From contig OX597818.1 of assembly GCA_951406725.2 (NCBI GenBank), forward strand, positions 4,340,001 to 4,404,000: a stretch of 64,000 nt of DNA, given 5' to 3'. Below, piece by piece: positions 3,541 to 62,500 of this stretch; within the stretch, counting starts at the first letter, position 1; each line of letters starts with the position of its first letter. The position numbers were made by a program, and so were the translations under genes. Source of the stretch: Octopus vulgaris. Taxonomy: Eukaryota. The notes beneath the pieces were generated by a model. It had not been told where the DNA came from and ran no database searches. It saw only the letters and a list, made by a program, of their open reading frames with translations.

Positions 3541-3629
3541 CATACATACATGTATATATATACACACATATATATATATACATACATATATATATACATA
3601 TATACATATATATATACATATATATATAC

Positions 3630-3828: not shown

Positions 3829-3913
3829 TATGTATGTATATATATATATATGTATGTATATATATATATATGTATGTATATATATATATATGTATGTATA
3901 TATATATATGTAT

Positions 3914-4104
3914 GTATATATATTGTATATAAGAAAAAGGGACAAGCAACAGGTTGCTTGACCCTTTTTCTTATATACAATATATATACTGAACTTTACA
4001 GAAGTTCCTGCCGGTAATCGGCTATATTTACATACCGAATTCTACCAGTAAATAATAGTGGTTTTTTAAAAAACCTTTATAGAAATTATTTACTCTTATT
4101 ATTA
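3914..4104 (+). mobile_element. tiny hairpin + tail element in (TA)n
   Basis: 37-bp arms 3914-3950 / 3953-3989 with one mismatch, then ~115-bp tail containing atagtggtttt as in the other mini-PLE tails. Confidence 0.6.
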
Positions 4105-6461: not shown

Positions 6462-6497
<36 letters not shown>

Positions 6498-6501
<4 letters not shown>

Positions 6502-6785
6502 CATTATTGGTGAATTGAAGAAATGGAGCTGAACGCAGATTGAACAGAAATCGTTTTATTTCATTCAGTGAATGAAATAAAACGATTTCTGTTCAATCTG
6601 CGTTCAGCTCCATTTCTTCAATTCACCAATAATGTTTTAATTTCAATTATCCGCACCAACGCACGGTTGCAACACCATATGGTTGTACCTCCAACCGTGC
6701 TGTTTACTGCTGTGATTTTTGCTACTAAGGTATCGGTTAAACTTTTGATTAATCTACTACAAGATTAGTCATCTTTCTATTTCAC

Positions 6786-6790
<5 letters not shown>
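6498..6790 (+). mobile_element. foldback mini-PLE, family A
   Basis: Perfect 70-bp arms 6498-6567 / 6569-6638 around one base, then a tail nearly identical to 33215-33369. Confidence 0.85.
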
Positions 6791-6833
<43 letters not shown>

Positions 6834-20578: not shown

Positions 20579-21795
20579 GGGGGTATCCAAAAGAAACCAG
20601 AATTTTGCAATATTATTTTATTTACTTATTTTACATGTTTACACTTTTATCGCCTTCAAAGTATTCTACATTTGAAGCAATGGATTGGTCCAAATGTGTC
20701 TTCCACTGTTCAAAGTAGTCCTGGAATTCTTGCAAAGTGATGCCTTTTCATGCCCCTATTGATTTTTCTCCACCTCTTCCACATCTGACGAATGTTGAAC
20801 TTTAAGGAATTTTTTCATTCAAGAAAACAAAAAAGTTGCAAGAAGCAAAACTGGGTGAATAGGGAGGGTGAGTAGGCAGGATCCACCCATTTTTGCTCAA
20901 GAACTGTTTCACACTCAAGGTGGTGTGCACAGGAGCATTGTCATGATGAAACCACCACTCTCCACTTTACCACAGGTTGGGGCGTTTTCATCTCATTGTG
21001 TCTCACAAACGCTTCAGAACTGCCAAGTAAAACATCTGGTTAACAATTTGATCAGGAGGAGAAAATTCTGTGTAGCCAATTTCTATTACATTGATGAAAC
21101 AAATCAGCACTGTCTTGACATTGAACTTCACTTGACATGCTTTTTCGGAGTGTGGTGACATTGAATGCTTCCACTGACTTGATTGATGACCTTAAAAAAA
21201 AAAGTCCAGATCAACTTCCAACTATTCTTTCAGTTCATGACATGCATTCACTTGTGACTACTTTTGATCTTCCATGAGCAAGCAAGGCACAACATTTGCT
21301 GCAATTCTTTTCATTCACAATTCCTTGCTCAAAATTTGTTGGCAGGAGATCCAGGACACACCATATCAACAAGCTTGTGACAGTCCTCCAAAATCAGTTC
21401 AGGAATTTTCATTGTTTCCATTTGTTCAGGAGGTTGAAGGTCACCCTGAACTAAGTTGGTCTTCAAGCAACAAGCAACCATTCCTAAAGCGTGAAAACTA
21501 CTTGTAAACTTATTTTGCTTATGGCAGTATCCTTGTAAGCTGTTTAAAGCATGACAACTGTTTTAGCTGAAAACAGAAAGCAGAATTTCACAGAGGCATG
21601 TTTTTCCTTTGTTTCAACCATCACAAACATTGACAAACAAGGGAGAAGCACTGCAAAACAAAGATGTACTACATGGCAGTATGACTTCAATCAATGATAC
21701 CAATGAGCAGACTGATGCCTGAGGGTTACTAGTGGCAGAAGCCTGAACTATTATGGGCTTGTTCCACAAAGAACATTTCTGGCACCACCTTGTAT
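20576..21795 (-). mobile_element. decayed mariner transposon
   Basis: Minus strand FHHDNAPVH and HPPYSPSFASCNF (YSPDLAP-type motif); TIR-like ends. Confidence 0.85.
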
Positions 21796-21885
21796 AACAT
21801 ATATATGTGTGTGTGTGTGTGTGTGCGTGCGTGTGTGTGTGTATATACAAGGTGGTGCCAGAAATGTTCTCTGTGGAACAAGCCC

Positions 21886-26609: not shown

Positions 26610-26642
<33 letters not shown>

Positions 26643-26652
<10 letters not shown>

Positions 26653-27048
26653 TATTAGAGACAAAACCACTATTTTGCAAAACAAACAAGGAAAGACTTA
26701 ATCAATACATAAAATTTTAATAAATAGTCAAAAAAAACGCCACTACAATCGTTTCTTGTCTTGATCGACAATCTTCAGGTGGACTTCAATAAGTCAGTTT
26801 CAAAATTTGAAACTGACTTATTGAAGTCCACCTGAAGATTGTCGATCAAGACAAGAAACGATTGTAGTGGCGTTTTTTTTGACTATTTATTAAAATTTTA
26901 TGTATTGATTAAGTCTTTCCTTGTTTGTTTTGCAAAATAGTGGTTTTGTCTCTAATAATATTTTATAATATTTTACTATAAAATTGGATTTAATCTTAAA
27001 TCTGATTTTTTCCCTGTAAATTTGGATTTATTCCCTAATATTTATTAT
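26643..27048 (+). mobile_element. foldback mini-PLE, family B
   Basis: 162-bp arms 26643-26804 / 26806-26967, perfect by eye, plus ~80-bp tail; (TA)n flanks. Confidence 0.88.
26826..26872 (+). ncRNA. minimal hammerhead ribozyme (mirror copy on - at 26738-26784)
   Basis: CCAC-CTGAAGA-TTGTC-gatcaa-GACAA-GAAAC-GATT-GTA-GTGG. Confidence 0.85.
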
Positions 27049-27099
27049 TATATATATATATATATATATATATAATGATATATATACATAAACAAATGT

Positions 27100-31074: not shown

Positions 31075-33896
<2,822 letters not shown>

Positions 33897-33903
33897 ATAT
33901 ATG

Positions 33904-52734: not shown

Positions 52735-53148
52735 TGTTAATTATATTTATATTATTTGTTATTTATGTATTGGTTTATGTCTACTACTGTTTGAGTTGCC
52801 TAATAGTGGTTTTATCTCTAATTCATATTTTTTATATACTTATACTGTGAAATTTGATTTAATCCTAAATTTAATTTTTCCCTGTAAGTTTGGAGCCATA
52901 CTCCCTAACATTTTAAGAAGTGAAAAAAAGTTTCTTTTTTACAAATATAAACTACGTGTTTGAAATAATATACTTAAGCCCAATTACTTTGATTTCAATT
53001 CAACTGTTTAGATGGCAGCTGAATAATTTATTTCCCATTTAATGGTGGGTATCCTTCTAGTTTATATAACTACATAGAATAAATTTTATGTTAAATGGCT
53101 ATGTGGAAACTGAAACTTTATATTTTATTTTTTTCTTCTTGTGAATAG

Positions 53149-60457: not shown

Positions 60458-62500
60458 GGATCTTTTCCTTTTGAACGGTAGTTTGTAACATAATTTCTAG
60501 GTAACTAAAAAATTTTAAACTTCGTATACTGGTAGAATGTGTTTATAAAACATCATTTTCTCTTGGCTTTATTGAGAAAATTCTATAGGTTGTAACATAT
60601 TTCGTCTAAAATTTCTTGCATTTCGGCAATTTTAACCAATCAATTACCTCCATTGACATAAATAACATTCTGTGCATAATGAATATGTCCCTCGTTTAAC
60701 CCTTTCGTTACTATATTTCTGACCAAAATACACCCCTCATGAGTTTCAATTAAATTCTAAAATAATCATGAATTTAGGCTTGTTTCATTAAATAACTGTA
60801 ACTTTTTTACTTATCAACATACAAATGTGATATTTTGAACATAATTAAAGAAAGGGTTCTTAACCAATTCTATTGCATAACTTTTGTCTCAAAGTGACTT
60901 TAATTACAGGTAAATCCAGGTAAATTGAGCAAAAGGTAAAAATATTAAAATTTTAAATTGAGCAAAAGGTAAAAAATTAAAATTTTGTTTAAACATCACT
61001 ATAGAAAATGAATCATCAGCTAATATTCAAATGGGTATGCAACAAAATTTTGAAAAAGAAGAATTGTGCACATCACTATATCATTAGTTGAATTTAATGC
61101 ACAACAGGTGTACCATAAAGGTGGAATAAACTGAAATATTGGAATCCACCGCAAGTTTGACCGAACTAAAGAAATCGGTCAAAAAATAATATACGGCCCT
61201 GGTTATGGTATGGAAGTGATAAATTCCAGACCACATCGTACCCTAAGCCATGCTGACTAACATTATTTTCCCTGTATAAAAACTAAATCCACGCAGTACC
61301 CAGTATTTGCTTCATAAATTTCCCAAACTTTGATCCCCCATTTTGGGTTTGTTTACAATCTGCGTAAGTTTGTTTCCGACGTGATCGCTTCAAACTAGCA
61401 TACTGAAAAAAATAAAAGTCTAATGGTTTCGCTTCCTAAGAAAGACTATAGATAAACTATCTCCTCAGAAAAATTGCTAATAAAAACATTTTAAAAGTTT
61501 TTTTACTTCACTCCGATGTAAAATCGTCTTCGCCGCTTTGTTTCTTCGGAAGGCGCTGCTTTCATTTTCGGATAAAATAATATTCATTATTTTGTACACC
61601 ACATGCTTTGGTACCTATTTCATTTTTTTTCTCCATATCTCCCTATTTTCCGTTGACAAAGCTTTAAATTCGGAATCAATGCTTGATAACATGAAACTCC
61701 TATCCATTTTCAAAGTTGAAGAAAAATCGATGCCGAAAAACATGTGGAAAAAAATCTCCCAAAATTCACTGAGTTGAGATATCACTTCAAGCAATGTCGG
61801 ATACTATAACTTAACTATTTACAATGTGAAATCACGTGCTTTAACGAATGTACCAACGAGATTTGGGTTCAAATTTACATTTAAATAACAATAGGTTCTC
61901 ATGGCCGGGTACGGCCGGGTTAGTAACGAAAGGGTTAAGAAACAGATTGGGTTTATTTACATTTGTGAAGAAAAAAGATACCCTTCCCCCACCCCTAACC
62001 CTAACTAACCCTAACTCTAATCCTAAATCTAAAATAGATTGAAATGCAATAGATCGATACTAGGGTTATAATTATGGGTGACAATTTCATACGACACCGC
62101 TATAAAAAACTTAGCTGTGTCGTATGAAATTGTCACCCATAATTATAACCCTAGTATCGATCTATTGCATTTCAATCTATTTTAGAGTTAGGGTGGGTTA
62201 GGGGTGGGGGAAGGGTATCTTTTTTTCTTCACAAATGTAAATAAACCCAATCTGTTTCTTAAAGGAGGGACATATTCATTATGCACAGAATTTTATTTAC
62301 GTCAATGGAGGTAATTGATTGGTTAAAATTGCTGAAATGCAAGAAATTTTAGACGAAATATGTTACAACCTATAGAATTTTCTCAGTAAAGCCAAGAGAA
62401 AATGATGTTTTATAAACACATTCTACCAGTATACGAAGTTTAAAATTTTTTAGTTACCTAGAAATTATGTTACAAACTGCCGTTCAAAAGGAAAAGATCC
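60458..62500. mobile_element. foldback MITE (~400-bp arms, 8-bp TSD, GG termini; Merlin-like by inference) interrupted by the piggyBac element
   Basis: TSD aaaagttt 60450-60457 / 62501-62508; arms rejoin once 60700-61938 is removed; apex near 62103-62111; ccctaa repeats. Confidence 0.85.
60700..61934. mobile_element. non-autonomous piggyBac element
   Basis: TTAA TSDs 60696-60699 / 61935-61938; perfect 14-bp TIR ccctttcgttacta. Confidence 0.93.

What the first reader, a model, noticed from the sequence alone, without database searches (positions are those of the whole stretch)
6498..6790. Palindrome apex coincides with the hammerhead self-cleavage site
Seen: this element is a perfect 70-bp hairpin plus tail and has no HHR core. 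Its sibling at 32921-33369 keeps the HHR, with predicted cleavage GUA^GAAUGAAAUAAAACG. The sense arm here begins GAATGAAATAAAACG at 6570, so the fold-back apex is within 2 nt of the cleavage point. Established: PLE pseudo-LTRs carry minimal HHRs and PLE insertions are often inverted, but the role of the ribozyme in integration is unclear. Inference: the ribozyme-cut ~220-nt 3' fragment was itself the template; RT ran to the cut end and folded back, leaving a genomic record of in vivo self-cleavage.
Basis: partly seen in the sequence, partly recalled or inferred. Interest (0 to 1): 0.85.

Follow-up and report, generated by a model that had tools for sequence, protein, structure and literature searches.

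The report
Penelope hairpin ending at ribozyme cut
This is a short hairpin-shaped copy of a jumping gene whose two arms both stop exactly at the predicted cut site of the element's own self-cutting RNA motif; it likely records a rare copying of cut RNA, whereas nearly all other copies in the genome run straight through that site and many stop instead at the likely capped start of the RNA.

Summary
Observation confirmed: 6498-6638 is a perfect hairpin and both arms end exactly at the first base after the predicted hammerhead cut (+1), joined by AGT. The element is a Hydra-clade Penelope-like retrotransposon (3.6-kb unit, 899-aa ORF, 1155 exact tail matches). The sibling itself reads through the cut to that site. 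Fold-back is not the family's mechanism: arms start at two fixed sites (+55-74, +211-222) and in 26 of 57 the inverted arm is the longer, which points to twin priming. Yet among blunt symmetric hairpins 10 of 31 converge at -2..+1 (2.3 expected), and a second hammerhead family shows a similar excess and an exact twin. Other clusters of like size exist, so cleavage is likely, not shown. Verdict: partly supported; cut RNA is at most a rare side template.

The parts
6466..6497 (.). (TA)n target, left flank
6498..6566 (-). short (inverted) arm, element positions +69 to +1; outer end at the AT-rich internal start site
6567..6569 (.). AGT, not in the element at this place; each arm is followed by an A on its cDNA strand
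6570..6638 (+). long arm, +1 to +69; first base is the one after the predicted ribozyme cut
6639..6790 (+). tail of about 150 nt between the two start sites, ending at about +222
6791..6829 (.). (TA)n target, right flank
32923..33152 (-). sibling: inverted arm, +64 to -167, reads through the ribozyme
32978..33068 (-). sibling: predicted type I hammerhead, cut predicted between 32987 and 32986
33153..33155 (-). sibling: extra G ahead of G-167 (likely cap copy) and 2 further junction bases
33156..33369 (+). sibling: long arm, +8 to +222

Best explanation
The hairpin is a 5'-truncated, head-to-head insertion of a Hydra-clade Penelope-like retrotransposon, likely made when the two ends of a cut (TA)n site each primed a cDNA on the element RNA (at about +222 and +69), both cDNAs likely ran off an RNA end left by the predicted hammerhead cut, gained untemplated bases and were joined. 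Shown: anatomy, the two fixed outer ends, arms of either length, stop rates at +1 and -168, the extra G, the cluster at -2..+1. Inferred: twin priming, -168 as capped start, cleavage in vivo. The main template of the family is uncut, capped RNA; cut RNA would account for roughly 0.5% of arms.
For: Two fixed outer ends: 50 of 57 inverted arms start at +55..+74, 94 of 95 tails end at +211..+222, 88 of 95 followed by TA-rich DNA. Inverted arm longer by >15 nt in 26 of 57, shorter in 15, within 15 nt in 16 (3.5 expected, 0 of 20000 permutations). Extra G on both arm types (15 short, 13 long of 28), in 6 short arms whose partner stops >15 nt downstream. Real RNA ends leave peaks: 150 arms start at -168 against 964 continuing. 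At the cut: 10 of 31 symmetric (<=5 nt) low-microhomology (<=1 nt) hairpins at -2..+1, 6 exactly at +1, 2.3 expected, p 5e-5 under a uniform null; 6 of 12 such junctions have inserts against 7 of 43 elsewhere, p 0.024. Second family: 15 of 35 arm ends at +1/-1/-2 in a 14-position range, by eye, and one twin with both arms at +1 (G000:C6:116842822). Core intact in 176 of 188 arms.
Against: Over all arms the stop rate at +1 is 0.8% against a mean of 0.44% per base; 4 against 3.7 expected in the negative-letter set (a set that under-samples symmetric hairpins at some registers). The uniform null is too kind: 9 of the same 31 lie at +6..+8, and 6 of 8 further upstream lie at -37..-41 where no RNA end is known. 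Several cluster members have one arm at -1 or -2, which a cut RNA explains only by chance or added bases. Helix III is 2 bp and does not form in the monomer fold. In the anole element cleavage was dispensable in vitro and no RNA reads ended at the cut (PMC11167929). No RNA data for this element were seen.
Confidence: 0.5

Rival explanations
1. Same twin-primed insertion, but on uncut RNA: both cDNAs stopped at +1 through a structural or sequence pause, or by chance, one of several hot spots.
For: 99% of arms pass +1; clusters of like size at +6..+8 and -37..-41, and palindrome-bound ones at -16 and -9; counts per position are overdispersed, mean 4.6, variance 11.8; the finding was picked after the fact.
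Against: +1 was named beforehand by the ribozyme fold; it is the sharpest cluster at a site that is not self-complementary (6 exactly at +1); insert-rich junctions; excess and twin in a second family of unrelated sequence.
Confidence: 0.36
2. One reading: the cut 3' fragment was the template, one cDNA ran to the cut end, folded back and copied itself.
For: Fits the focal copy alone; arm ends are coupled (16 of 57 within 15 nt); self-priming was proposed for PLE palindromes (PMC3846280).
Against: Cannot give inverted arms longer than their partner (26 of 57), nor short arms with the extra G beside a much shorter long arm (6 of 28, the sibling among them), nor the fixed outer end at +55..+74.
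Confidence: 0.08
3. A longer palindromic insertion later lost its centre by cruciform cutting and end joining, and the new apex fell at +1 by chance.
For: Perfect hairpins pile up at natural 8-bp palindromes (-16: 8; -9: 4 with 8-nt overlap); long palindromes are unstable (established knowledge, recalled).
Against: The copy is young (tail 99% identical to 39 other top hits; arms identical); the route predicts no preference for +1.
Confidence: 0.06

Closest known systems
Hydra clade of C-terminal EN+ Penelope-like elements (Craig et al. 2021, PMC8557442; passages read)
   Same: RT then GIY-YIG-like domain; RW(K/L), DKT, CxxC and CxH round E and N; (TA)n targets; hammerhead in the pLTR; inverted 5'-truncated copy and tail.
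   Different: 3.6-kb unit and 899 aa (Hydra usually <3 kb); linker CxCX5C degenerate in the copy examined; tail about 150 nt, not 30-40; helix II of 55 nt.
Anole Poseidon element PAc (Frangieh et al. 2024, PMC11167929; parts 1-2 of 4 read)
   Same: Two RT start sites with the tail between them, both DNA strands extended, AT-rich target, uncut RNA the main template.
   Different: Here the evidence is genomic; start sites 150 nt apart; a capped-start peak and a small cluster at the cut are visible, whereas that paper found no RNA reads ending at the cut.
R2 elements with HDV-like ribozymes (Eickbush et al. 2013, PMC3774820; abstract read)
   Same: A ribozyme cut site can be read from genomic 5' junctions.
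   Different: In R2 the cut defines the template's 5' end; here fewer than 1% of arms end at it.
L1 twin priming and untemplated 5' G (PMC12934576, passages read; Ostertag and Kazazian 2001 seen as a reference title only; cap origin of the G recalled)
   Same: Inversion from two primers; extra G at full-length 5' ends.
   Different: Second primer at a fixed site and arms that overlap, giving palindromes; L1 inverted pieces do not overlap (recalled).
Minimal PLE hammerheads and non-LTR retrozymes (PMC4209133, parts 1-2 of 4; bioRxiv 10.64898/2026.07.22.740005, part 1 of 5)
   Same: Type I fold, 2-bp helix III with palindromic loop (ACGU in 176 of 188 arms), expected to cut as a dimer.
   Different: Autonomous element, dispersed hairpins without the ribozyme, not tandem short monomers.

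Membership tests
EN+ Penelope-like element | Single ORF with RT and C-terminal GIY-YIG endonuclease | tested here: met
   899-aa ORF in L106 and L140; YRDD and a C-terminal VY...YVG region align with 11 homologues. Pfam gave 0 families, so the domains rest on motifs, not profile hits.
EN+ Penelope-like element | Tandem or partial tandem units, inverted 5'-truncated copy, tail | tested here: met
   Period 3624-3626; 57 of 95 copies inverted.
Hydra clade | RWK, DKT, CxxC and CxH flanking E and N | tested here: met
   RWL (RWK/RWR in homologues), SDKT, CNLC..E..N..CPH (against the text).
Hydra clade | Linker CxCX5C | tested here: inconclusive
   Present in 10 of 11 homologues, degenerate in L106.
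Hydra clade | Placement in the RT tree with reference clades | not tested
   No named reference PLE proteins were held.
Hydra clade | (TA)n insertion | tested here: met
   88 of 95.
Neptune/Nematis clades | CX2-5CxxC linker and DKG | tested here: not met
   DKT; no such linker. My first label 'Neptune-like' was dropped.
Type I hammerhead ribozyme | CUGANGA, GAAA, UH core with three helices | tested here: met
   176, 186 and 183 of 188 arms by the counts shown; helix II first pair p 0.99.
Type I hammerhead ribozyme | Covariation in helices | tested here: inconclusive
   Family too young; one double change in 2 of 188 arms; the second family varies helix II in pairs in 6 copies seen.
Type I hammerhead ribozyme | Self-cleavage at GUA | not testable with these tools
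   Needs an assay.
Inr/DPE internal Pol II promoter | Inr at the start, DPE at +28 to +32, capped 5' end | tested here: inconclusive
   CAGTTT at -169 and AGTTC 28-32 nt from A-168 (consensus motifs recalled); sharp stop peak with extra G; no RNA 5'-end data.

The most novel reading that the evidence does not exclude
The genome stores a quantitative record of how a Penelope-like element copies itself in vivo: sense, capped RNA is primed internally from both target ends at two fixed sites, which explains the inverted pseudo-LTRs; the cap is copied as a G; and a distinct class of blunt hairpins, the focal copy among them, is the fossil of hammerhead cleavage in vivo, showing that the ribozyme does cut but on under 1% of productive templates.
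Probability: 0.45. Interest if true: 0.72.

Novelty: new variant of a known kind. Interest (0 to 1): 0.55.

Why it matters
What the PLE hammerhead does and how inverted pseudo-LTRs form are stated as open in PMC8557442 and PMC11167929. Junction counts in a young family of over a thousand copies make both testable from DNA alone. They favour sense, capped, uncut templates and two primers over the antisense self-priming proposed in PMC3846280, put a ceiling of about 1% on cut templates, and give a candidate signature of cleavage in vivo. Searches for Penelope-like plus twin priming and for Penelope-like plus cap or non-templated bases found no paper on this in the open library; subscription papers and unread supplements of PMC11167929 and PMC8557442 may bear on it.

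Tried and rejected
(query starting at +1) is biased to copies that reach +1 and was not used for counts. The negative-letter search under-samples symmetric hairpins at some registers, so a two-anchor search replaced it for hairpins. 11 of its 197 hits were dropped by eye as small indels before fetching, 17 more by script. Rfam, Pfam and PDB sequences gave nothing for the element. No RNA holder listed. Contigs of 4 runs did not bridge the focal junction and cannot show RNA ends. Regex errors voided the family-1 helix counts; one search is the valid one. The templated-or-not test for the extra G was too crude (12 of 22 unknown). Monomer folding did not give the active fold. One older-subfamily hairpin (L527) is mis-scored, and variant tolerance merges +7 into +6 there. 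No earlier findings were returned. The Neptune label was rejected.

Full report
Observation. The hairpin is real and perfect, 6498-6638, with AGT at its centre. Taking +1 as the G after the predicted cut GUA^G, it is the reverse complement of +1..+69, then AGT, then +1..+222, between two (TA)n runs. Both arms stop exactly at +1. The sibling holds a type I hammerhead on the minus strand, but that arm runs through the cut to -167 and bears one extra G, and its long arm starts at +8.

The family. The genome has 2.8 Gb in 227 contigs; size and a homologue named from Argonauta suggest an octopus, which is inference. A 33-nt tail motif has 1155 exact matches. Tandem units repeat every 3624-3626 nt and carry an 899-aa ORF. 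Its motifs match the Hydra clade as described in PMC8557442; no tree was built. The ribozyme core is intact in 176 of 188 arms, with a 2-bp helix III and palindromic loop, the form said to need a dimer (PMC4209133).

Anatomy across copies. I fetched 97 of the first 100 listed tail matches, 95 distinct. 57 have an inverted partner, 30 none, 6 are tandem-internal, 2 unresolved. Outer ends are fixed (50 of 57 at +55..+74; 94 of 95 at +211..+222), inner ends range from +82 to about -3300. The inverted arm reaches more than 15 nt further upstream than the long arm in 26 of 57, the reverse in 15, and they end within 15 nt in 16 (3.5 expected). An arm cannot be copied from a shorter cDNA, so fold-back is not the general route. 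Two primers at two fixed sites fit, and agree with the two start sites and two-strand extension shown in vitro for the anole element (PMC11167929). The coupling means that the two cDNAs often stop together, as at an RNA end or a strong stop.

A positive control. At -168 lies CAGTTT with AGTTC 28-32 nt on, like Inr and DPE (motifs recalled; an internal promoter with both is shown for Drosophila Penelope in PMC2377424, passages). 150 arms begin exactly there against 964 that continue; 28 of 30 checked are true ends (the script gave 29, one is an insertion by eye). 61 of the 100 listed have a G in front, against 21% expected; at -167, 30 of 68 against 26% (by-eye counts; p 1e-17 and 0.001). In a 40-position window 11 of 30 held ends lie at -169..-167 and 2 upstream of -170; by eye 40 of the first 100 of 200. 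The G occurs on both arm types. I read it as the copied cap, as for L1 (untemplated G noted in PMC12934576; cap origin recalled). These templates were sense, capped and uncut.

1236 arms read through in register against 169 ends in -18..+19 (186 of 197 hits examined): 4 at +1 (3.7 expected), 34 at +1..+7 (32.4), 21 at -1..+2 (13.7, p 0.04), 19 at +8. With a pattern of the same size as at -168, 23 arms lack the A at -1, 19 of them ends (about four look like internal deletions), against 2314 that keep it. That is 0.8%, against a rough mean of 0.44% per base and 13% at -168. No general peak exists.

The test on hairpins. A two-anchor search found 142 short hairpins, 117 with the tail anchor; all 117 were examined, 115 after merging three copies with the same flanks. 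68 of 115 have an arm reaching -4 or beyond. Of 31 with arms within 5 nt and at most 1 nt of overlap, 10 converge at -2..+1, six exactly at +1 (2.3 expected; p 5e-5; the nine settings tried gave p 5e-5 to 0.005). Half of that cluster has inserted bases (6 of 12 against 7 of 43, p 0.024), as run-off ends would. Against this, 9 of the 31 lie at +6..+8, and of 8 such hairpins among 42 of 49 longer ones, 6 lie at -37..-41, so clusters arise without known RNA ends and the uniform p-values overstate the case. The +6..+8 group may be a pause at helix I, joining at a self-complementary TA, or trimmed cut ends; I cannot tell.

Replication. A second hammerhead family occurs in the window. Most of the first 100 of its 283 short hairpins turn in an A/T-rich stretch downstream of its cut (by eye). 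Among 49 listed arms that include +3..+10, 35 end between +3 and -11, 15 of them at +1, -1 or -2 (by eye; p about 0.005, computed for n=36; 0.011 by element). One has both arms at +1 round a 6-nt insert, a twin of the focal copy. The gap limit favours shorter arms and TA partners inflate -2, so this is modest support.

Verdict. Shown: the anatomy, two start sites, read-through as the rule, a strong G-marked stop at -168, a small cluster at the cut. Inferred: twin priming, the cap, cleavage. I put the focal copy at about even odds of recording a cut RNA by joining of two cDNAs (0.5), against a pause or chance on uncut RNA (0.36), fold-back (0.08) and later collapse (0.06). Read-through alone does not exclude cut and re-ligated circles as templates for long copies; the cap-marked copies do exclude it for themselves.

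Noticed in passing
G000-wide, element position -168/-167; window 33152-33153: Sharp stop with an extra G at an Inr-like site: 150 and 68 arms, G in 61 of 100 and 30 of 68; likely a genomic record of the capped start of a PLE transcript.
   Followed up: yes
window 26640-27050 and 33500-33900; fragment 52762-52913: Second hammerhead-bearing hairpin-plus-tail family in (TA)n, arms of about 164 nt, apices about 60 nt upstream of its cut; at least 283 short hairpins genome-wide; its ORF and start site were not sought.
   Followed up: partly
L106-L107 (G000:C1:119513900-119533000): Tandem array of units 3624 nt apart with an open 899-aa ORF; would fit long read-through RNA or a circular template.
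   Followed up: partly
L106:4764-7460 (-): Long Asn/Ser-rich inserts between RT and endonuclease, linker cysteines partly lost; recalls the N-rich inserts in rotifer Penelopes (PMC3846280). No Pfam hit for the whole ORF.
   Followed up: no
G000, element positions +8, -9, -16, -35 to -44: Other apex hot spots, at short natural palindromes and near the tip of helix II; almost none from -45 to -62.
   Followed up: partly
L190, L450, L456, L476, L508; family 2 listing: Junctions with repeated short templated inserts, as from repeated realignment of the cDNA end.
   Followed up: no
G000:C29:29148271, 29233594, 30260030: Three copies of one hairpin with the same flanks, a segmental duplication; counted once.
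   Followed up: yes
window 3912-3990, 21758-21882, 62057-62157: Further short inverted-repeat elements (38-bp arms at 3950; two that score weakly as miRNA hairpins), probably MITE-like.
   Followed up: no
window 10090 (-) and 15962 (+); 37998 and 45220 (+): Pairs of identical repeat stretches, one pair inverted about 6 kb apart, one direct about 7.2 kb apart, seen in the motif scan.
   Followed up: no
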